Translations under genes and position numbers: made by a program
In this document: positions 6,861-33,656 of the stretch, one piece after another
Layout: every line of letters starts with the position of its first letter
Numbering within the stretch: the first letter of the stretch is position 1
Notes under the pieces: model-generated
Database searches by the model: none
Told to the model about the DNA's origin: nothing
What the model saw: the letters and a program-made list of their open reading frames with translations, nothing else
Source of the DNA: Sphaerodactylus townsendi
Taxonomy: Eukaryota
DNA: 64,000 nucleotides
Direction of reading: 5' to 3'
Assembly (NCBI RefSeq): GCF_021028975.2
Contig: NC_059428.1
Coordinates: forward strand, 119,784,001-119,848,000

Positions 6861-8139
6861 TTAAAACCATTCCCCATGAACCACTGTTGAACTGCTGTGC
6901 AATCACACAGCATCTGGAGTGTTTATTTAATTTACTGCTGCCTTGCAAGCCATTTTTTGGCATCTGCACAATAGGTGAAATTGATTCTGTCTCAGATTTA
7001 TGGGGAGTCAAGTCAGGTAATGAGCAGTTCAATCTTTTGCAGAGTTACTCCAGTCTAAGCCCATTGACTTCCACAACCTCAGCCTGGATTAATTCTACAT
7101 AGAATTGTTTTGTAAATGAAGCATGTAGGTGGTAGTGTAATAAGCCTGTACAAAAGCCTGCAGGCATACCATAAAGTTGATGGACAGCCAACAGCAAGAC
7201 TATGACCATTGGTGCACATACTGCTGTGACACAGCTGGGAGCTTCACTCTGGGGTTTTCCCTGTGGCTTCCTATACTTAAAGGAACCTCCCACTGCAAAG
7301 TTTCCTCCTTTTTGGCCACCAGTTGCTTCTTCTTCTCATCTAAGTGTGACCTCCCTGTAGGGGAGGTCACACTTTTTGGAGGGAAGGGGAGGTTGGTCCA
7401 GCAAAAATACAATAGATTTCACTTGTCTATTGCATTTTCAAAAGGACAGCAGCCTGAAAAACAACAGATTTGTTGGGCCTGCAGAGCTTTTGAATGAGTG
7501 GGGGAAGGTAGGGAAGGACAACAAAACCATGAAAAAGAATTATGCTTCCTGTTTAGCAGTTTAGCTTCATGGGGGAAAACAAAGTGGCATTTTGCCAGTA
7601 TTCAGTGTTCAGATACTGCACAGCTTCTCTGTCTACACCTCTGTGCAGGCTGCGCCGTCTTCCCCACCCCTACCAGGACCATCCGTGCGAACGTTTATGC
7701 CGACACACCCCTGCAGCATGGTCGTGAGGAAATGGTCTAAAATTAGAGTCATGGCTGAATTCTGGTTTTCCAAACTAACCATGGGTAGCAGAAAGAGATG
7801 GGCATTGGCCCTGTATTGCTGCTTCCTGGGTTAGATATAAGGACAATGGCACTGGGTGACCACAGGCAGGGTGGTGTCCATCTCCCAAGCCAGAACCCAA
7901 TAAAGTCTCCAGAGAAAAGTGGTAAGAGACGAAAATGCACAGAGAGGGGGAGGACACATCTCTCCAGTGGGCCAGGAGCCAGCCCCACTAACCTCCAAAA
8001 GACAGAGGCATTAGGCTTTGGCACAAGTCCTTTGGGCACAGAGGAAGAGCAGCAGCATCAACCAAACACCTGCTTGAAGATTCCTGCAGCTAACAAAGAC
8101 TAGCTTAGATAAAGATGATTGTTGGTGCACAACGAGAAC

Positions 8140-8615
8140 ACACAAAATGAGTTTGCCCCATTTTATTTCCCTCAACCTGGGATTTTTGAAAAACGCTAAA
8201 CCAGCAATTATTTTGCAAAATCCTGGATTGGATTTCCCACCCTTCCATTATGCTGTCCAAAGTCCGGGAGAATCTGCCTGCCATTGCCCTGCCATTGCTG
8301 GGAAGCCCCCTTTTCTTTCTTTTAATTTTTTTGCATGTTATGCATGTGCAGCTACACAGGTGCAGGCAATTATGTTGTGGGTGATCAGCATGGCTGTGGG
8401 GGTTCATTTCTCTATGTTTGTGCAGCTACACCTGTATTGCAGTAAATAATTTTTTTAAAGCATCTCCATGTGAAGACGCAAAAGCAATCCCAATTGTTTC
8501 CATGGGTTCCAATTGCTGCCTGCATGGCATACATATGAACAGGGAAAAGGAAAACTGTTTTTTTTTAAAAAAAAATGACTGCAACCCATTATATATTTGC
8601 TGTGCAGAACTGACC
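8140..8615. mobile_element. Harbinger-type non-autonomous element (family B), left end decayed
   Basis: Homologous to 63550-64000; right TIR gtgcagaactgacc matches the left TIR ggtcgattctgcac at 63469. Confidence 0.7.
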
Positions 8616-8829
8616 AATGTGCTACAGCCCCCTCCACTTCAATCAGACCACCATACACTCAGCATCTTCATCATCAGTAATTTGACTTTCCCACCCCTGT
8701 CAGTCCACCAGTTTCTTTCACAAACATAAAATAGCATATTCTTTCAATAAGTTTGAATTTGTGTTGATTACCCTAGCAATGAAAATGTTGCCTTCTCCGA
8801 TTTCCACGAAGCTTTATCCCAACTAATGA

Positions 8830-9130
8830 AAGAAGAAGAAGAGTTTGGATTTATATTCCCCTTTTCTCTCCTGTAGGAGACTCAAAGGGGTTTACAATCT
8901 CCTTGCCCTTCCCCCCTCAAAACAAACACCCTGTGAGGTAGGTGGGGCTGAGAGAGCTCCGAGAAGCTGTGACTAGCCCAAGGTCACCCAAGTGGCATGT
9001 GTGGGAATGTACAGGCTAATCTGAATTCCCCAGATAAGCCTCCACAGCTCAGGCGGCAGAGCGGAGAATCAAACCCAGTTCCTCCAGATTAGATACACAA
9101 GCTCTTAATCTCCTACGCCTCTGCTGCTCC
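8830..9130 (-). mobile_element. Sauria/Squam-type SINE
   Basis: Characteristic aagaagaagagtttggatttata...gtgactagcccaaggtcaccca body; reverse complement of the copy at 45016. Confidence 0.85.
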
Positions 9131-10142
9131 TTTCATTGATTACTCTACTGTTTCAATCTGGCAGCCCTAGTGCTCAAAGCAATGAACTGGCTCACTGCCA
9201 AATGATTAATCTTTTTAAAAATGAGAATATTAATCAGTGGCCATTCTCCCTCCCCCTCCCCCTCCCACCTTACACAAACTTCAAACATCCCCATGTAAAA
9301 TACAGGTTTCAATACATTCGGAGCGATCTTGTGTATGCTAAGTTTAAGGCAGATTTGCATTGCTGCAGACTGCGAATAAATCCAGTGCCATTTGCCACTC
9401 TTTGTCTGTAATGTATTTTGTCATTTCTACAATTCACGTTTTATGATGGAGGTCACCAGCAGATGTTTGTGGACTGTTTTATTTCCCACTTATCTCTGAT
9501 GCACTACAAAGAGATTGCTTCCAGCTTCAAGGAAAATGAACCATTTCCGCATTTCATCTCTTTGGCAAGTGTTCTTAAAGCACAATGAAACAATCTAAGA
9601 AAACCCATGGTGTAATTCAAATTGACTGGGGAGTTGCTTTTCACAGTGCACCATTTTTTAAGGATATGTTTGTAAGTCTCAGGGTATGAAGAGAAAATCT
9701 GCTAGCTTATAATAGGCGTTGAAGTTGCATTCTGAATATAAATTATGTATTTTGTTCTTAGAAAAGCTGTCTTAAAAGGGCTCAGATTTGGCTTGATCAG
9801 GCCCTCTAATTCCAAATCCCATTAAACACAACATAAGGATAGAAGGTAATAGATTGGATAGATAGATGCTAAATAAACGGTAGCTAGATAAATGTTCAGT
9901 AAATGATAGACAGATAAATGCTGAATAAGTGATAGATAAATGACAGATAAATATTCATACTGGGAGTAATTGTGAGCATTAAAATACTGGAAAATGATTG
10001 TGGCAGACATTTCAGCCAATATAGCCAGTTTTAAAATCACTTCTATACCAGATTTGATAGAGATAAAACATGTTGTCAGTATTCCCTGTCTTGGGTGCTG
10101 TGTGGTTTCCGGGCTGTATGGCCGTGTTCTAGCAGCATTCTC

Positions 10143-10185
10143 TCCTGACGTTTCGCCTGCATCTGTGGCTGGCATCTTCAGAGGA
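10143..10185 (-). ncRNA. Minimal type I hammerhead ribozyme in Penelope pLTR
   Basis: Minus strand reads TCCT-CTGAAGA-TGCC..GGC-GAAA-CG-TC-AGGA: CUGANGA and GAAA cores, stem I tcct/agga, stem II gcc/ggc, GUC cleavage triplet. Confidence 0.85.
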
Positions 10186-10366
10186 TCTGTGTGGTTTCCG
10201 GGCTGTGAGTAACAAAGAAGGCAACCAGGTCAATAGTTGAGGGCATCTGAAAAGAAGTATGAGTAACAATGAAGACTATAGCCTGGGAGTAACCCTGTAG
10301 ATAGCAAGGTCACTGGTGGGAGCATCTGAATAGAAGTATCCTGGCCTTTGTTTCTTTTGTCTATGG

Positions 10367-10653: not shown

Positions 10654-13600
10654 TTTTGGCCACCAGTTGCTTCTTCTTACCTCATCCTAGAAGTGTGACC
10701 TCCCTGTAGGAGGTCAGCACTTTCGGAAGGAAGGGAGGTTGGTCCAACAAAAATACAATAGATTTCCCTTGTCTATTGCATTTTCGAAAAAGGACAGCAG
10801 CCTGAAAAATAGCAACAAGATTTTGTTTTGGGCCTGCAGAGCTTTTTTGGAATGGAGTGGGGAAGGTAGAGGCTAGAAGGACAACAAAACCATGAGAAAA
10901 AGAATTATGCTCTGTTTACGCCAGTTTAGCTTCATAGGGGAAAACAAAGGTGGCATTTTGCCAGTATTACAGAAGTGTTCAGATACCTGCACAGGCTTCT
11001 CTGTCTACACCCTCTGTGCAGGCTCAGCCGTCTCTCCCCACCCCTACCAGGATACCATCCCGGTCGCGAGCGCGCGTTTACCGGACATACACCCTGCAGC
11101 ATGGTCATTGAGGAAATGGTCTACAAAATTAGAAGTCATGGCTGAATTCTGGTTTTCCAAACTAACCATGGGTAGCAGAAAGAGAGATGGGCATTGGCCT
11201 GTATTGCTGCCTTTCCTGGGTTGGGCCTATCGCAAGGACCAATGGCACTTGGGGTGACCCACTGCAAAAGGCAGGGTGGTGTCCATCTCCCAAGCCAGAA
11301 CCCAATAAAGTCTCCAGGAGAAAAGAGTGGTAAAGAAGTGACGAAATGCACAGAGAGGAGGGGGAGGACACATCTCTCCAGTGTGGGCGGTGAATGCCAG
11401 CCCCCACTAACCTCTCAAAGACAGAGGCATTAGGCTTTTGGCACAAAGTCAGCCTTTGGGCACAGAGGGAAGAGCAGCAGCATCAAACTCAAAACACCTG
11501 CTTGAGAGATTCCTGCAGCTAACAAGAGACTAGCTTAGATAAAGATGATTGTTGGTGCGAGGTACAAAGCTTGAGGGAACACACAAAATGGAAGTTTGCC
11601 CCACTTTTATTTCCCATTTCAACCTAGGATTTTTGAAAAACGCTAAAACCAGCAATTTATTTTGCAAAGGAATCCTGGATTGGATTTCCCACCCTTCCAT
11701 TATGCTGTCCAAAGATCTGGGAAGAATCTGCCTGCCATTTAGCTCCTTGCCATTGCTGCTGGGAAGCCCCTTTTCTTTCTTTTAATTTTTTTTTGCATGT
11801 TATGGTGCATGGTGCAGCTACACAGGAATTGCGAGCCAATTATGTTGTGGAGTACGATCCAGCATTGGCTGTAAGGGGGTTCCCATTTCCTCTATGTTTG
11901 TGCCGAAGCTCGCACACTTGTATTGCTGTAGTAAATAAAGATTTTTTAAAGACATCTCCATGTTTTAGCTGAAGACTTAAAAGCAATCCCAAATTGCTTT
12001 CCACATGGGTTCCCGAATTGCTGCCGCTCGCATGGCATACATATGAACAGAGGGGAAAAGGAAAACTGGTTTTTTTTAAAAAAAAATGACTGCAACCCAT
12101 TATATATTTGCTGTGTGCAAGAACTGACGAAGGCAATGTGCTACCTACAGCCCTCCAGCTCTCAATCAGAGACAACCACCATACACTCAGCATCTTCATC
12201 ATCCAGTGAATTTGACTTTTCGCCACCCCCTGTTGTCAGTCCACCGGTTCTTTTCACAACGCCGCCATAAAACTGGCATATTCTTTTCAATAATGGTTTG
12301 AATTTGGTGTTGATTATTCCCTAGCAATGAATTAAATGTATTTGCCTCTCCTCGATTTCCACGTAAGCTTTATCCCAAGTAACTAGGCTGGAAAGAAGGA
12401 AGAAGGAAGAGTTTGGATTTATGATTCCCCTTTTCTCTCCTGTAAGAAGACTCAAAGGGGTTACAATCTCCTTGCCCTTCCCCCCTCACAAAAACAAACA
12501 CTGCCTGTGAAGTGGGTGGGGGGCTAGAGAGAGGCTCGAGAAGCTGTGACTAGCCCAAGGTCACCCAGAGTGGCATGTGTGGGAATGCAGAGGCTAATCT
12601 GAGATTCCCCCAGATGAAGCCTGCCTCCCACAGCTCAGAGGATGACAGGTGAGCTGAGGAATCAAACCCCAGTTCCCTCCCAAGATTAGATACACAAGCT
12701 CTTAATCTCCTCACGCCTCTTGCTGCATCCTTTCATTGATTACTCCTTACTGTTTCAATCTGGCAGCCCCTGAGTGCTCAAGCAAGCAATGAACTGGCTC
12801 ACTGCTTTCTTAAAAATGATTAATCTTTTTTAAAATGAGAATATTAATCAGTGGCCCATTCTCCTCCTCCCCTCCCCCCCTCCACCTTACACAAACTTCA
12901 AAACATCCCCATGTAAAAAAATACAAGGGGTTTCAAGCTACGATTCGGGCACGATCTTGTTGTAATGCTAAGTTTAAAGGCAGATTTGCATTGCTGCAGA
13001 CTCTGGGAGATAAATCCAGTGCCATTTGCCACTTTCCCCTTTTGTCTGTAATGTATTTTGTCATTTCTACAATTCACGTTTTATGATGGGAGGTCACCAG
13101 CTTGAATGCTTTGTGAGGACTGTTTTTATTTCCCACTTATCTTCTGATGCACTACAAAGAGATTGCTTCCAGCTTCTGCAGGAAATGAAGCCATTTCCGC
13201 ATTTCATCCTCTTTGGCAAGTGTTTGTACGCTTTCGAAAGCACTGAAAGTAATGGGAAACAATCTAAGAAAACCCATGGTGTAATTCAAATTGACTGGGG
13301 AGTTGCTTTTCACAGTGCACCATTTTTTAAGGATATGTTTGTAAGTCTCAGGGTATGAAGAGAAAATCTGCTAGCTTATATAATAGAAGCGTTGTTGAAG
13401 TTGCATTATGAATATAAATTATGTATTTTGTTCTTAGAAAAGCTGTCTTAAAAGGGCTCAGATTTGGCTTGATCAGGCCCTCTAATTCCAAATCCCATTA
13501 AACACAACATAAGGATAGAAGGTAATAAGATTGGATAGATTAGATGCCTTCAAAATAAACGGTAGCTAAGATAAAATGTTCAGTAAATGATAGACAGATA

Positions 13601-13882
13601 AATGCTGAATAAGTGATAGATAAATGACAGATAAATATTCATACTGGGAGTAATTGTGAGCATTAAAATACTGGAAAATGATTGTGGCAGACATTTCAGC
13701 CAATATAGCCAGTTTTAAAATCACTTCTATACCAGATTTGATAGAGATAAAACATGTTGTCCGAGAAGTATTCCCTGTCTTGGTGCTGTAATGTGGTTTC
13801 GGGCTGTCATTATGTTCGCGCTTAGTTAGTATTCTCCTGACGTTTAGCCTGCATTCTGTGAAAACTGAGCATCTTCAGAGGA
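10654..13882 (+). repeat. Duplicated segment, copy 2 (indel-rich; probable raw long-read artefact)
   Basis: About 12% longer than copy 1 through many scattered 1-3 nt insertions. Confidence 0.9.
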
Positions 13883-14007
13883 TGCCAGAAGCACAGATGG
13901 TGGCAAAAAACGTTCAGGAGAGAATGTTACTTAGAACACGGGACTTGCCACTCCCAGGAATTCATAGCTACCCAAGTGATTCCGGCCGTGAAAGCCTTCG
14001 ACAATAC
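13880..14007 (+). mobile_element. Penelope pLTR 3' end, opposite orientation to 10093-10190
   Basis: ...cccaagtgattccggccgtgaaagccttcgacaatac, followed by attccctgtctt, the 12-mer that also precedes the element at 10081-10092. Confidence 0.8.
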
Positions 14008-27619: not shown

Positions 27620-27958
27620 TGTAAGGAATTCCAAAGAGCAGAAATAAAAGGCTTTTGGATATAAGACCGTTTATTCAGACATCTTAGAAAGCACACACAC
27701 ACGACATGACAGGAATGAGGCCTCCCGCCCAAACTACAGGTTACTCATAAATTACTCCAATCCCTTCCCCCTCCCGCAACGGAGCCCATCCAGGCCCATC
27801 TCATGAAGAACCAGGAATGCTCATCTTAGTCAAGCAAGATAAGCCCGTCCACCAAAAGGTTGTTACCCGCCCGCTTCTGGCCCGCCGACCCGGCTGAGAG
27901 GCGTCCGTCAGAGCCAGCTGGCTGGGAGAGAACCAGAGCAGACCTGCCATCACTTACA
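27620..27958 (-). repeat. 3' LTR
   Basis: Homologous to 33165-33465; minus-strand AATAAA at 27670-27675; preceded on the minus strand by purine-rich gggaagcagag (PPT-like). Confidence 0.9.
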
Positions 27959-27959
27959 C

Positions 27960-28160
27960 TCTGCTTCCCAAAGAAAACCTCCCCGGCTTGTCAGGAAAGG
28001 CTTTGTGAAAAGCAGCAATGAGGGAGGGGGCATCAATATTTTCTGTATATACCCATTGATTATGATGACCAGAGGGATAGCCAACCCATGAAACTTAGAT
28101 ATTGTAGGCGATTAGCGGGGAAGCGGGGAGTCAGAATAGCATCTATTTCCAAAGTGCTTG
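27960..28160 (-). pseudogene. Integrase C-terminal chromodomain
   Basis: Manual translation: ..LQYL / SWVGYPSGHHNQWVYTENIDAPSLIAAFHKAFPDKPG.., with the stop codon inside the LTR. Confidence 0.85.
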
Positions 28161-29313
28161 TAGCCATCGAATTATAACTGGCGGGGGGGTGGCTCGAGGC
28201 GTCGTGCCAGGCATCTGAAAGCGAGGGAGCCTCAGCTTGAAGGCAAAGCTAGAATATGAAAAGACAGAGGTGAATGTTACTTGCCAATGAGTTAAGAGCA
28301 GTTCAAAGCGAGCAGTAACATCATTGATCACTGCTTTGTAATCGAGAAAAGGGCCCACAAATTTCTTGCCAGAAGTTTTGAATGTTTATTGCCTGCGTCT
28401 CTAAGGTTTTTTAGTGGACAAATAGATTGCGCTAACCATGCTTAGGAAGTCCGGCGGCGCTTGTCCGCCTGAACCTTTTGTGATTCTTACTTAAGGGCCT
28501 GCTGCAAGGTAGAGCTGCACTGTTTTTCCAACCCTCTCGGCTAAGCGAAGGAAATCCATTGTTTGAATTCTGGAGGCTGCAGTACCTCTGCAGGCAGCTG
28601 AGACGATAGCGGATTGGAAAAGGAACCGACCAGAAACACAATCTCCCGAGCCGAAGGATTAACTGCGTTGCTACTATGATTGGCATTGTTATCATACTCT
28701 GCAAAGAGTAAATGCGTCGCACCAATTGTCCTGATGATAGTTAGTGATAACAAAGCGTAAATACTGTTCTAGCGTTCTGTTAAATCCGTTCTGATTAGGC
28801 GTCACTTTGAAGAGCGTGGTAGAGGCGGCTGACCGCTGGGGTGGTTTCCAACAGCTCCAGGAAAGCCTTCAAAACTTAGATATGAATTGGGGACGCGGTT
28901 GGGATACCACCTTATCCGGAGAGGTGTAGAAGGCGATAGATATGTTGGATAAACAAAGCGGAGCCAGTTTAGAGTGCCCGGCCGGGATGGTGGTGCAAAG
29001 GAATAAAATGTGCCTGTTTACAGAAAGATCCACCACCACCCATAAAACAGGTGTTCCGTGGCTCCGACCCAAATCCCGGTTATAAGAATCCACATGGAAA
29101 TGACTTGCCAGAATTAGAGAGATGCAGCAAGGGAGGGTTTTAATGGCAACCCATCGCGGCTTCCGGTATCGACTTGGCTTCCGCACAGAGCGGAACACCG
29201 CTTTGATATCACGTTTCCAATGTCTTTATGCGCGTAGGCCAATACCAGAACTGTAAAGCGGTAGACCAGATGCAACGTTTTCAAAAACCCGAAGTGCCCA
29301 GCTTGACGGGCGT
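28160..29313 (-). pseudogene. Gypsy integrase (zinc finger, DDE core, GPF motif), frameshifted
   Basis: ARQAGHFGFLKTLHLV; VLWVVVDL; PDKVVS..PQFISKF; KFVGPF..VINDVT. Confidence 0.9.
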
Positions 29314-30450
29314 GGTCTCCTTATCTCCCACAGTCCAATTTAGTTCAGCCCCAGAAAACTTTTTTGGACAAATGGCTTCGCAGTACCAATTTGTTTATCT
29401 TTATTTTTTTTCTGCAAAGGAGGCGAAGCGCCTGGCGGCTTATCGAAACATCCACGTACACGATAAAAAGGAAGATCTGGGTCTGGGTGTTTTAGAATTG
29501 TGGTTCTGTAGTAAAAGCTGTTTTTAGCTGCTGGAATGCTGACTGGCATTCTCGAGAGACCAGAGAAGGGAGCTCGAGGGTTTCAGAAAGCCTGCGCGAG
29601 TCTTTGCCTTTGGTACATGTAGGAGATGTTACCGGTGTGGTAGGGCAATTTGTGGAAATTGGGGAATAAAGTCACAATAGAAATTAGCAAAGCCGGGGAA
29701 GGATTGCAGTTCCTTTCTGTTGGTGGGGGCAGGCCATTCAATTACTCGCGGCTATTTTGCTGGGTCCATTTCAAGCCCTCGCGGGGAGATTTGATACCCA
29801 GATAGTCAATGGAGGGCGATGGAAACAGCATTTTGACAACTTGACAAAGAGGGAGTTATCTAGTAAGAGCGTTGTAAGACTTCTGCGTACTAGTTTCTCA
29901 TGCTCCTCAATGTTTTGTGAGTAAATTAATACATCATCTAAATGCTCGACCACCCTTTGTATAACAGATCCTGTAAAACTTCGTTGATAAGAGCCATGAA
30001 GGCTCCTGGAATCCAACTAATCGAATGGCATTATTAAATATTCATATTGTCCAAACTTTGTATTGAAAGCTGTCAAGTGTTCATAGCCTTCATAATCTGG
30101 ACTCTGTAATAAGCCTCTCTTAAGTCAATTTTGGTAAAGATCCGTCCTTTGCCCAATGCATCCAAGAGGTCTTTAATTAAGGGCAAAAGGATACTTGTTG
30201 GATCTGGACACAGCATTCAATCGGTAATCAGTACAAAGTCTTAACGAACCGTCCCTTTTTTTAACAAATAGAAGACAGAGGCATGGGTATGTTTGTGTAC
30301 GTCATTATGAATCCATGAGCCAAGTTTTTTTTTATCTAAGAAGTGGCGGAGTTCCTTCTCCTCGGTAGGACTCATCGCGATAGATTCTACCTTTAGGTAA
30401 CTGAGCTCCAAGGTTGCAGTAAAATTTTGCCAGTCAGTATCCTATGGGGG
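29313..30450 (-). pseudogene. Reverse transcriptase and N-terminal RNase H, frameshifted
   Basis: [81 protein letters not shown]. Confidence 0.92.
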
Positions 30451-30599
30451 GCAATTGGGTCGCACTCCTGTTCTTGAAACACTCTGGATAAGTCTCGTCG
30501 CCCTCTCGCGGGATTTCCGCAGGACCAGGGGCTTGAACAATACATTTAAAGCTTTAGGATCCATGGGCCTGGATTCTCCAGTGAGAGGTGGGCTTTCCT

Positions 30600-31000
30600 C
30601 CCGTTCATGTGATCTCCACAGGGGGGGGATCGAGGAAGTGGAGGATCAGCTCTTTCCATATGATGGTTGGTTCATGTAAAGACAGCCAAGGCATGCCTAA
30701 CACAATAGTGTGTTTGTAACAGGAGCAAAGGATGAAACTTATTTTCTCCCAATGAATTACGACAGCGAATACTGGCTGGGTTTTAAAAGCGTGCGGACCT
30801 TCACCTCCTAGAGGACTACCATCCATTTGGGTGAAGGGAATGCTGGGTTTCACCAAAGGGGACTCGGTCTAAACCAAGTTAAATTGACCACTTGTGGCCT
30901 CAGCATGAGACAGTGGGAACAGCCGAGTCCACAAGTCGCGAGGAAGCCAGAATCTTGGCGATATGTTTACTTGGGTTGGCTAGTGTGGTTAAAATGGTAA
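30600..31000 (-). pseudogene. Aspartic protease, frameshifted
   Basis: LVDS(G)CSHCLM near 30905-30935 (needs one indel); IVLGMPWLSLHEPTIIWK. Confidence 0.8.
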
Positions 31001-31039
31001 TGGGAGCACTGCCTTCACTCACGCATCTGGAGTGGGGTT

Positions 31040-33100
31040 AATGTCACCGGGTGCTGCTGACAGGCAGAGGCGCTACATCTCCGTTCTCGAAATCTTCCTC
31101 GATAGCAGCTTTAAGGCGATCCCTGGTAGGACCTGATTCTGATGGAGGCTTGGCTGCCCGCGAAAGTGTGGCCGAATTTAGGGGTTTTAGCTGGCAGACG
31201 GTTAATGTGGGTGGCCAGGCCCCACTTAGTAAAGGCATAATCAGCGGCGTGACGTTCCGGCGTGGTTTCAGCTCGGCGGCAGGAGTTGGTTTCTGAGTAC
31301 TTGAATTGCTGTGGTGTAAATTAGAAGCGGGTTTTATTTGTGAATGCATCTCTTGTGAAGCGTAGCGCAAAGGCAGAAGACAGCGACTTGTGATCCCCGG
31401 ATTCGATCCATTACGGCTATTGTCCGGGATCGGATGAGATAACAGATTTCAGCGCAGTTTGATGTCCATGCAGCCGAAAGTACTCACATTTTCGTACATT
31501 CCGGCCAATCTGGAGAGTTTACTGGCGCTGCGAAATTCCCGGCGTATTCAGCGAAGAGCGGTTACCTTGTTGGATGGTTTTACTATGCGTGTTACAGCGT
31601 TTTCTGCATCAGGGTCTTGGAAGCGGTAGCGCCTGGAAGGCCCCACTGTCTGCGGTGTCGTCAGCCTGTAATTAAGTGAGAGTAACGAACCATTCAGCAG
31701 CTATGCCATCAATTACTGATCAATGTCTCCGGACTTTCTCCGCGTTCAGAGCGATATAGGTCATCATACTCTTGCATATGGGCATCGAGTTGTAAGATGA
31801 GGTAGGGGGAGTTTGATGCAGTCCCATCAAAGCGAGCTGGGATAGGTGATCTGTAAAATCCTCTCTCAACAGCTTCGAGTGCGTGTTGAGGTTGTTGCTG
31901 TCAGGTGGCCTGGTTGTTGCAAGGGGTAAAGTGGGCGAACTGGAGGAACCGGGAAAGGCTGAAGCCTGAGCAGGTTGGGGGCGCTGAAGTGGACCTCGAG
32001 AAGTACCGTGCCTCCGGTGAGAACTATGAAGCCGGGAGAAGAGTGTAGCCTCTATCTGGAGCTTCACTGCCAGTGTAGCCCGCTGTTTCGCAAATCTCGT
32101 TCTGGGTACGGTAACTCTCTTTCCTTGCGTCAAGGTGTCCTGGTGCACATGCAAGGCAGCCTCGATCAATTTAGCTCGTTCATCTTCGTTGTATGGCTGT
32201 AGTCAGTTCATTCTGCATTTGGATGGCCTTGATGCCTTGGCTGGCGTTGTCAATCCATTTTTGATTGATCAGTACTTTGTCATGAACTGTCGAGATTCTG
32301 CTGCGGAACTGTCGGCGCAGCGGCTTCTTTGATCAACTCCCGGTACCCCGGGTTCACGCGTTGCTTCTCCGGTCCCGTTACCCGAATTTTCACGCTCCCT
32401 CTTCCCAGAGTTTGCGTTAGCTCCCAGGCAAAGTTGGCTTCAGCAGGGCTACTTCATCGTCCCAACTTCCCCTTCGAGGGCATTGGGAGCAGGTCAGGGA
32501 TCGGGGATTTAGTTCCACCTCAGGCGGACTTCTTTTCGATTCCTCCTGACCACTTTCCCGCGAACTCTTCCATCCGTTCACTTGCTCCCAGCTCTGGAGC
32601 GCAGTTTTAAATATGGAACCCTCTACGATCCATCGATCGACTCAGCGTCACTAAGTTCCAGCCTCAGCCCGTAGTCTTGGGGTAGCGCCCGGTACTGTCC
32701 CTGCTGCTCCTTGGGAATATCATCAAAGGAAACATCTAGGGAATCTTTCCATGGATTCCTGGAATTGTCAGCGAGTTGGATTTATGGATACCCAGTTCCT
32801 CAGGGACTGGCTGCATTTAGGGGTTGTAATCCCTTTCGTTAGCCGGAGAAGCGAACCCGATGGAAACAGGCGCCGATCCATGGATAATGCATAGCGTTTC
32901 ATGCATCTCCACCGTGTCGGACCCACCTTGTTCATCCCAATGGAAACAAAGGGGCAAACTTGTACTGTTATCTCTAGGTCTGGAGAGTCGCAGAGAATCG
33001 AGACCATCTCCATCTCCTAGATCACCGAATCTGGAAGGGAAGGCTGAGAGAAGCCCTCTATGGGGCTATGGAATTGCCTTCCACATGATCAGCGTACTCA
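31040..33100 (-). pseudogene. gag (capsid plus CCHC knuckle, long N-terminal part), frameshifted
   Basis: FDG..LQLDAHMQEYDDLYRSER capsid-like region near 31830-31730; LCLY..G..H..VC knuckle remnant near 31240-31190. Confidence 0.7.
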
Positions 33101-33153
33101 ATCTCATGTTAGAACACCAGAGATCCGCCCGATGTAACAGTAGGTTAAAAAGT

Positions 33154-33164
33154 TCCTGTCGCCA
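33154..33164 (-). promoter_or_regulatory. Primer-binding site region
   Basis: TGGCGACAGGA immediately 3' of the 5' LTR on the minus strand. Confidence 0.7.
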
Positions 33165-33465
33165 ATAAAGAATTCCAAGAGCAAGGAAAATAAAAGGCTT
33201 TTGGATATAAGACCGTTTATTCAGACATCTTAGAGCACTGACAGGAATGAGGCCTCCCGCCCAAACTACAGGTTATAGCATTCAATCCCTTCCAGCTGGG
33301 CCATTACTCCAGGCCCATCTCATGGGAACGGAATGCTCATCTTGGTCAGCAAGATAAGCCATCCACCAAGGTTGTTGCCGCCGATTCTGGCCCGCCGCCC
33401 GGCTGGAGGCATTCCGTCAAGGCCAGCTGGCTGGGAGAGAACCAGGCAGACCTGCCATCCTTACA
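33165..33465 (-). repeat. 5' LTR with TATA-like box (33273-33277), initiator (~33248) and AATAAA (33216-33221)
   Basis: Homologous to 27620-27958; minus strand has TATAA about 29 nt upstream of the A of TCATTCC. Confidence 0.88.
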
Positions 33466-33656
33466 ACCAGCACCACAGCACACTATCTGATGCACCACTT
33501 GCTGAGTTCCTGGGGGATTTTGTCTGGGGCTGAGGCCTTGGCACACTCTCTGGAGGGTTGGTGTCAGGGCAGCTGTGATCATTGCTCCCACCACTACTCT
33601 TGGTCCTTTTGTCTGAGCCAGTGTGGAGCTTTGAAATCAATTGAAGTTGTCTAGAG

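What the first reader, a model, noticed from the sequence alone, without database searches (positions are those of the whole stretch)
33150..33280. Chromovirus primer-binding site is complementary to its own predicted transcript 5' end (candidate tRNA-independent self-priming)
Seen: on the minus strand the 5' LTR has TATAA (33277-33273), then about 29 nt later an initiator TCATTCC, so the predicted RNA starts AUUCCUGUC (33248-33240). Just past the LTR the PBS position reads UGGCGACAGGAAC, and GACAGGAA pairs with UUCCUGUC over 8 contiguous bp. The same LTR motif (tgacaggaatga) is in the 3' LTR. Known: S. pombe Tf1 primes reverse transcription by annealing its own 5' end to the PBS, and this was proposed for vertebrate Tf1/sushi-group elements. 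The same PBS is also one gap away from the complement of the tRNA-Ser(GCU) 3' end (TGGCGACGAGGA). Inference: the element self-primes, or is an intermediate compatible with both modes.
Basis: partly seen in the sequence, partly recalled or inferred. Interest (0 to 1): 0.7.

Follow-up and report, generated by a model that had tools for sequence, protein, structure and literature searches.

The report
Self-priming gecko LTR retrotransposon family
This is an error-rich copy of a large lizard jumping-gene family in which the 11 letters where DNA copying starts match the element's own predicted RNA start in 23 differently lettered versions, so it likely primes itself without a host tRNA, as yeast Tf1 does and as was already predicted for vertebrate relatives; the tRNA-like look of this one copy is likely a sequencing error.

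Summary
Cleaner copies of this chromovirus read LTR-CA, a 2-nt spacer, then an 11-nt PBS exactly complementary to an LTR 11-mer that begins with A about 30 nt behind a TATA-like box. Where the LTR end was called from the LTR pair alone, 40 of 52 elements have the full 11 pairs (control 1 of 1040). Across the genome sample, 23 different primer/PBS sequences keep the pairing, with compensatory changes at 9 of 11 positions in a 14-type alignment. A tRNA cannot account for that. The TGGCG reading occurs in only 6 noisy copies of four primer types and is likely a context-specific read error, though not proven. Extra clue: the base after the PBS is C in 126 of 133 junctions and the next bases vary, as expected if the capped self-primer is copied back into the PBS. 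No RNA data: start site and cleavage are inferred. Self-priming is already described for Tf1/sushi elements, vertebrates included, and this scan noted similar cases in other genomes. New member of a known kind, unusually well supported.

The parts
33166..33465 (-). 5' LTR (about 300 nt here, 316 nt in cleaner copies); starts TGTAAG, terminal CA lost in this copy
33273..33277 (-). TATA-like box, 29 nt before the predicted start
   Evidence: TATA-like at -31..-29 in 21 of 23 primer types
33238..33248 (-). predicted self-primer, first 11 nt of the predicted RNA (A at 33248 in a pyrimidine-A initiator); its end is garbled in this copy
   Evidence: start site inferred, not mapped
33216..33221 (-). 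AATAAA poly(A) signal, predicted to lie in a stem of the R-U5 hairpin
33152..33165 (-). spacer plus primer-binding site, here with the TGGCG reading; 8 contiguous pairs with the primer
27996..33106 (-). gag-pol region (capsid, CCHC, protease, RT, RNase H, integrase, SH3, chromodomain), split over all three frames by many indels
   Evidence: tblastn of natural copies on the window; Pfam on those copies
27959..27975 (-). polypurine tract region directly before the 3' LTR
   Evidence: sequence; same in other copies
27620..27958 (-). 3' LTR, ends CCTTACA; holds the intact 11-mer ATTCCTGTCAT at 27716-27706

Best explanation
This is an error-rich copy of a Ty3/Gypsy chromovirus family whose 11-nt primer-binding site is complementary to an LTR 11-mer at the predicted RNA start, so the family likely primes reverse transcription with its own RNA 5' end, as Tf1 does. 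Shown: the pairing, its fixed length and offset, its covariation, the promoter spacing and the domain set. Inferred by analogy with Tf1: transcription starts at the A; nt 1-11 fold onto the PBS across an R-U5 hairpin; RNase H cuts after nt 11; RT extends the new 3' end through the 2-nt spacer into U5; plus-strand synthesis later copies the retained capped primer, which would rewrite the PBS and leave a C opposite the cap. The TGGCG letters in this copy are likely a read error.
For: LTR end called from the LTR pair only in 52 of 92 loci: 39 have exactly 11 bp at offset 2, 1 has 12 bp at offset 1; slid control 1 of 1040. In the 20 loci picked only by gag match and ORF length (L251-L270), 13 were called and 11 are perfect, 2 have 10 of 11. 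133 perfect junctions fall into 23 primer types, all starting with A, 21 of 23 with a TATA-like motif at -31..-29 against 11 of 1127 background windows. On 14 types RNAalifold returns exactly these 11 pairs, 9 with changes on both sides; covariation score 0.867, shuffles 0.255, slid versions 0.15 or less. On an 87-row tree built with primer and PBS masked, primer position 8 changes 7 times, the PBS 10 times (the same 7 plus 3 single tips); position 11 once each. The duplex forms with mean pair probability 0.94-0.97 in 14 of 14 folds; z = -5.4 for one clean copy. Pfam shows RT, RNase H, integrase, SH3_Tf2-1 and Chromo. C follows the PBS in 126 of 133 junctions while the LTR base before the primer is never G. 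TGGCG appears in 6 copies of four primer types, five with LTR-LTR identity of 76-86%.
Against: No RNA evidence for the start site, the cut or priming. The 14 aligned types and the 133 junctions were selected for a perfect match, so their 100% pairing is by construction; types are related, so p-values overstate. 12 of 52 called loci are not perfect: 6 are mis-called internal ends, 5 have one mismatch, 1 is a TGGCG copy. The third duplex of the Tf1 pretzel (sequence 3' of the PBS with the LTR) was not found: 1 of 14 beat shuffles at p<0.05, and the inner hairpin does not survive in the consensus fold. The read-error reading was not reproduced elsewhere: only 3 of 301 TATG sites in noisy copies read with GCG, as many as the three TGGCG PBS copies in that set; one TGGCG copy has LTRs 95.7% alike. 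The variability after the PBS was clear in 28 overlapping pairs but not significant in 13 disjoint pairs (3 vs 11, p=0.38).
Confidence: 0.9

Rival explanations
1. The window copy truly carries a tRNA-Ser-compatible PBS, from a rare tRNA-primed event or a dual-mode intermediate, within an otherwise self-priming family.
For: As assembled it pairs with host tRNA-Ser(GCT) at -17.8 kcal/mol; two other copies of the subfamily share TGGCGAC; the change was not seen at other TATG sites.
Against: The same TTATG to TTGGCG change occurs in three other primer types, where the next letters follow the element and the tRNA match stops at 5 nt. The three subfamily copies have 61, 47 and 35 indel openings per 800 nt; 17 of 41 copies have 25 or more. 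They belong to different sub-lineages whose clean members have the usual PBS. The match lacks a G of the tRNA and is not extended.
Confidence: 0.08
2. The pairing is real but the primer comes from the R copy at the RNA 3' end or from a second RNA, or the duplex is only structural (packaging, poly(A) masking) and another primer is used.
For: R is present at both RNA ends; an earlier scan note (e1-7857552) argued this for another lineage; the third pretzel duplex is not detected.
Against: The duplex stops exactly at the A 29-31 nt behind the TATA-like box in 21 of 23 types and has the Tf1 length of 11; no G-U pair occurs among types; the C after the PBS fits a capped 5' end.
Confidence: 0.07
3. 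The complementarity is chance or an assembly artefact.
For: The window copy and many others are indel-rich; an 8-bp match alone occurs in about 2% of controls.
Against: About 1,600 junction matches genome-wide (200,393; controls 9 and 0), 23 covarying types, clean copies perfect (31 of 33 junctions).
Confidence: 0.01

Closest known systems
Tf1/Tf2 of Schizosaccharomyces pombe (self-priming shown by experiment)
   Same: First 11 bases complementary to the PBS, cut between 11 and 12 (PMC7175516, passages); chromodomain integrase; PBS copied into the cDNA 3' end and untemplated additions (PMC11042837, passages); some copies here have one long gag-pol frame, as Tf1 (bioRxiv 10.1101/2022.12.06.519325 section 28 part 2).
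   Different: A 2-nt spacer (TT in 44 of 52) separates LTR and PBS here, whereas the Tf1 PBS appears to follow the LTR directly (my inference); gag has a CCHC knuckle, which fission-yeast elements lack; third pretzel duplex not detected; nothing tested by experiment.
Vertebrate Tf1/sushi or V-clade chromoviruses (sushi-ichi, Amn-ichi, Amn-ni, Amn-san)
   Same: Vertebrate chromoviruses for which self-priming is reported as predicted (PMC6317226, PMC4600332, passages citing Butler et al. 2001); V-clade includes amniote elements (PMC2774666, passages). RT here is 50-67% identical to fish, frog, snake and lizard proteins.
   Different: RT groups in a well-supported clade of lizard and snake proteins apart from the fish and frog proteins tested; named references were not available for the tree; non-yeast members mostly use a -1 frameshift while some copies here have a single frame.
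Tcn1-clade plant and fungal chromoviruses
   Same: Self-priming predicted by the same rule, 10 bp or more starting 0-5 nt after the LTR (PMC6317226). One family in metagenome contigs (L318, L319, L342) shows 10 bp at offset 2 followed by C.
   Different: Different hosts, RT about 45-55% identical, other spacer letters.

Membership tests
Ty3/Gypsy chromovirus | order gag-PR-RT-RH-IN with C-terminal chromodomain | tested here: met
   Pfam on natural copies; same domains map to the window in pieces
Ty3/Gypsy chromovirus | TG...CA LTRs, PPT, 5-bp target duplication | tested here: met
   clean copies show all three; the window's duplication matches only 3 of 5 letters
Tf1/sushi group | PBS complementary to about 11 nt of the own LTR, no tRNA match | tested here: met
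   40 of 52; 23 types; only tRNA-Ser(GCT) was compared directly
Tf1/sushi group | the complementary stretch is the RNA 5' end | not testable with these tools
   TATA and initiator spacing fit; no raw RNA reads to map a start
Tf1/sushi group | three-duplex pretzel structure | tested here: inconclusive
   central duplex met; LTR-end duplex in about 12 of 14 single folds by eye but not in the consensus; duplex 3' of the PBS not found
Tf1/sushi group | RT/IN phylogeny with sushi-ichi, Amn or Tf1 references | tested here: inconclusive
   tree with unnamed vertebrate, fungal and algal homologues only, midpoint-drawn
Tf1/sushi group | RNase H cleavage after nt 11 and priming | not testable with these tools
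   needs biochemistry
tRNA-primed LTR element | PBS starts with TGG and matches a tRNA 3' end contiguously for 12 nt or more | tested here: not met
   0-4 nt contiguous match to tRNA-Ser in 15 of 15 types; window copy 7 nt then a gap; PBS changes with the LTR, not with a tRNA

The most novel reading that the evidence does not exclude
The integrated copies carry a fossil record of self-priming: each cycle the retained, capped 11-nt primer is copied into the plus strand, rewriting the PBS (hence wobble-free paired changes and at least 23 freely drifting primer sequences in one genome) and leaving a C opposite the cap plus untemplated letters behind it. This would be in-vivo genomic evidence for self-priming in an amniote, a way to read start sites from DNA alone, and a route by which the family could escape silencing by tRNA fragments.
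Probability: 0.5. Interest if true: 0.62.

Novelty: new member of a known kind. Interest (0 to 1): 0.42.

Why it matters
In the papers I could read, self-priming is demonstrated for yeast Tf1 and predicted for vertebrate relatives. This family gives an unusually deep comparative test in a reptile: 23 primer sequences with fixed geometry, over 1,500 junctions, young copies. It makes the vertebrate prediction directly testable from tissue RNA and cDNA ends. If the C after the PBS is a cap copy, the PBS is regenerated from the primer, which explains how primer and PBS change together. It also warns that tRNA-like PBS calls in noisy long-read stretches can be artefacts.

Tried and rejected
No RNA holder listed, so no start-site mapping. 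Contigs of 4 runs do not cover window 33130-33177, but 3 of 4 also miss the unique flank, so this says nothing about the TGGCG letters; at the TGGCG copy L062 the listed loose ends read usual PBS types, with 70 not shown, also not decisive. A generic TATG to TGGCG error was looked for and not found. A third pretzel duplex was not found. The hot spot after the PBS failed in the disjoint-pair test; tree-based counts put the first four columns at 7, 4 and 15 changes against means of 0.5, 0.12 and 0.47 per column, but columns 5-12 are raised too and these columns were left out of the tree. Loose patterns for TGG junctions returned mostly unrelated repeats. The older, fish-like gag group (L171-L182) gave no usable LTR. 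Of 43 metagenome loci of 5 kb or more, 11 had a direct repeat and 3 (one family) a complement. No tRNA gene in the window. Lin and Levin 1997 and 1998, Levin 1996, Atwood-Moore 2006 and the Esnault and Levin review were not held; Butler 2001 was seen only as a citation. Literature searches listed no paper on self-priming in lizards or snakes or on a cap-derived C after a PBS, but the library lacks most subscription journals; supplements of PMC6317226 were not opened and may list vertebrate self-primers.

Full report
Observation. They lie in the 5' LTR (33465-33166, minus strand) of a 5.8-kb LTR element whose 3' LTR is at 27958-27620. The copy is very noisy: the LTRs are 80% identical with 14% gap columns, there is no ORF of 250 codons, and gag-pol maps in pieces over three frames. 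Natural cleaner copies show capsid, CCHC, protease, RT, RNase H, integrase, SH3_Tf2-1 and chromodomain, so it is a Ty3/Gypsy chromovirus. The closest proteins come from gecko, snake and lizard records, and the RT tree groups the family with those apart from fish, frog, fungal and algal homologues (34 rows). The host is likely a gecko (inference).

The PBS in other copies. Of 26 other junction-bearing copies, 20 read CA, TT, ATGACAGGAAT, the exact complement of the LTR 11-mer ATTCCTGTCAT. A pattern search found 200 such junctions (control 9); by my count of the first 100 listed, 62 have this PBS, 28 a G variant, 2 the TGGCG reading, 8 other. A second pattern found 1,393 more (control 0). Each variant PBS came with the matching change in the LTR. 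Gag searches with proteins from other reptiles brought distant subfamilies with quite different 11-mers.

A non-circular count. Calling the LTR end only from the two LTR copies worked in 52 of 92 loci. 39 have exactly 11 complementary bases starting 2 nt after the LTR, one has 12; six calls were internal mis-calls, five have one mismatch, one is a TGGCG copy. Slid controls reached 11 in 1 of 1040. Many of these loci had been found with PBS-containing patterns; among the 20 chosen only by gag match and frame length, 13 were called and 11 are perfect. In 39 further clean loci, 33 junctions were found and 31 are perfect, one is N-masked, one garbled.

Covariation and position. The 133 perfect junctions in hand fall into 23 primer types. 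All begin with A, and 21 of 23 have a TATA-like motif at -31 to -29 (background 11 of 1127). For 14 types RNAalifold predicts these 11 pairs and nothing else, 9 with changes on both sides; score 0.867 against 0.255 shuffled and at most 0.15 slid. These rows were selected for a perfect match and are related, so the figures describe the spread of letters, not independent trials. On a tree of 87 copies with primer and PBS masked, position 8 of the primer changes 7 times and the PBS 10 times, the 3 extra being single tips. Single folds put the duplex at mean probability 0.94-0.97 in 14 of 14. A third duplex, part of the Tf1 pretzel, was not found.

The tRNA question. Three host tRNA-Ser(GCT) genes were found. 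The window's PBS as assembled pairs with them at about -17 to -18 kcal/mol, better than with itself (-12.9); the usual PBS of the subfamily gives -8.4 against -14.9, and in 15 of 15 types self-pairing wins. TGGCG was seen in six copies: three of this subfamily and one each of three other primer types, where the letters that follow belong to the element's own PBS. Five of the six have LTR pairs only 76-86% alike, and the three subfamily copies have 35-61 indel openings per 800 nt. Against the error reading, the change did not turn up at other TATG sites, so it would have to be specific to this context, and contigs of short-read runs did not settle it. I put read error at about 0.85.

Mechanism. 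Tf1 pairs its first 11 bases with the PBS and RNase H cuts between 11 and 12 (PMC7175516, passages). About half of Tf1 cDNA keeps a PBS copy at its 3' end and the RT adds untemplated bases (PMC11042837, passages). The same steps are inferred here. One sign goes further: the base after the PBS is C in 126 of 133 junctions and is the commonest base in 21 of 23 types (one a tie; background C 92 of 322), while the base before the primer is never G, so it is not extended complementarity. That RTs put C opposite a cap is recalled, not from a call. The next two bases are the most variable columns in clean copies, though a disjoint-pair test was not significant. This fits copying of the capped primer back into the PBS, which would also explain the paired changes without G-U intermediates. 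It remains a hypothesis; an unconstrained pyrimidine spacer or selection for C could mimic it.

Comparison. Self-priming is given as a common feature of the Tf1/sushi group, vertebrates included (bioRxiv 10.1101/2022.12.06.519325, passages and section 28 part 2; PMC6317226 and PMC4600332, passages). The element works like Tf1 by every sequence test except the third duplex; membership by phylogeny with named references could not be tested. Searches listed nothing on lizards or on the cap footprint, but Butler 2001 and most primary papers were not readable. That tRNA-primed elements are open to silencing by tRNA fragments comes from the abstract start of bioRxiv 10.1101/2025.05.12.650695 in a search listing. 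Earlier notes of this scan report similar self-complementary PBSs in other genomes; none on this family in this genome was among the 8 of 17 shown.

Verdict. Observation confirmed; self-priming likely (0.9); dual mode unlikely; new member of a known kind, interest 0.42, with the PBS-regeneration footprint as the most novel reading (probability 0.5).

Noticed in passing
window 8001-10186 and 11420-13883: Imperfect tandem duplication, 85% identical with 132 gap openings; likely an assembly by-product of noisy reads.
   Followed up: partly
L125 (G000:C1:58104000-58113500): Two LTR-PBS junctions 5.85 kb apart, a tandem element sharing one LTR; resembles the integrase-independent tandems of Tf1 (PMC11042837). 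L404/L405 may be another.
   Followed up: no
L129 (G000:C1:33081000-33090000): After the PBS the sequence runs on as an inverted copy of U3 and the 5' LTR lacks the primer region; a switch at the primer/PBS inverted repeat, real or chimeric.
   Followed up: partly
L136, 3' end: Truncated 3' LTR whose flank begins with five letters identical to the element's own spacer and PBS start, as in PBS-homology insertions of Tf1; single case.
   Followed up: no
window 33216-33221 and relatives: The poly(A) signal is predicted to be paired with the downstream U-rich element in most folds, a possible way to mask the 5' LTR signal.
   Followed up: no
G000, many places: Many copies have one open frame of about 1,900 codons, with about 350 unclassified residues before the capsid; the largest primer type accounts for 90 of the first 100 of 1,393 matches.
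   Followed up: partly
window 33467-33520: A contig of run X4 (organism B) matches the flank and leaves exactly at the LTR edge, perhaps the empty site in a related organism.
   Followed up: no
L063, L081: Copies that are type B in U3, U5 and leader but carry the type C letter in both primer and PBS: a paired switch on an otherwise unchanged background.
   Followed up: yes
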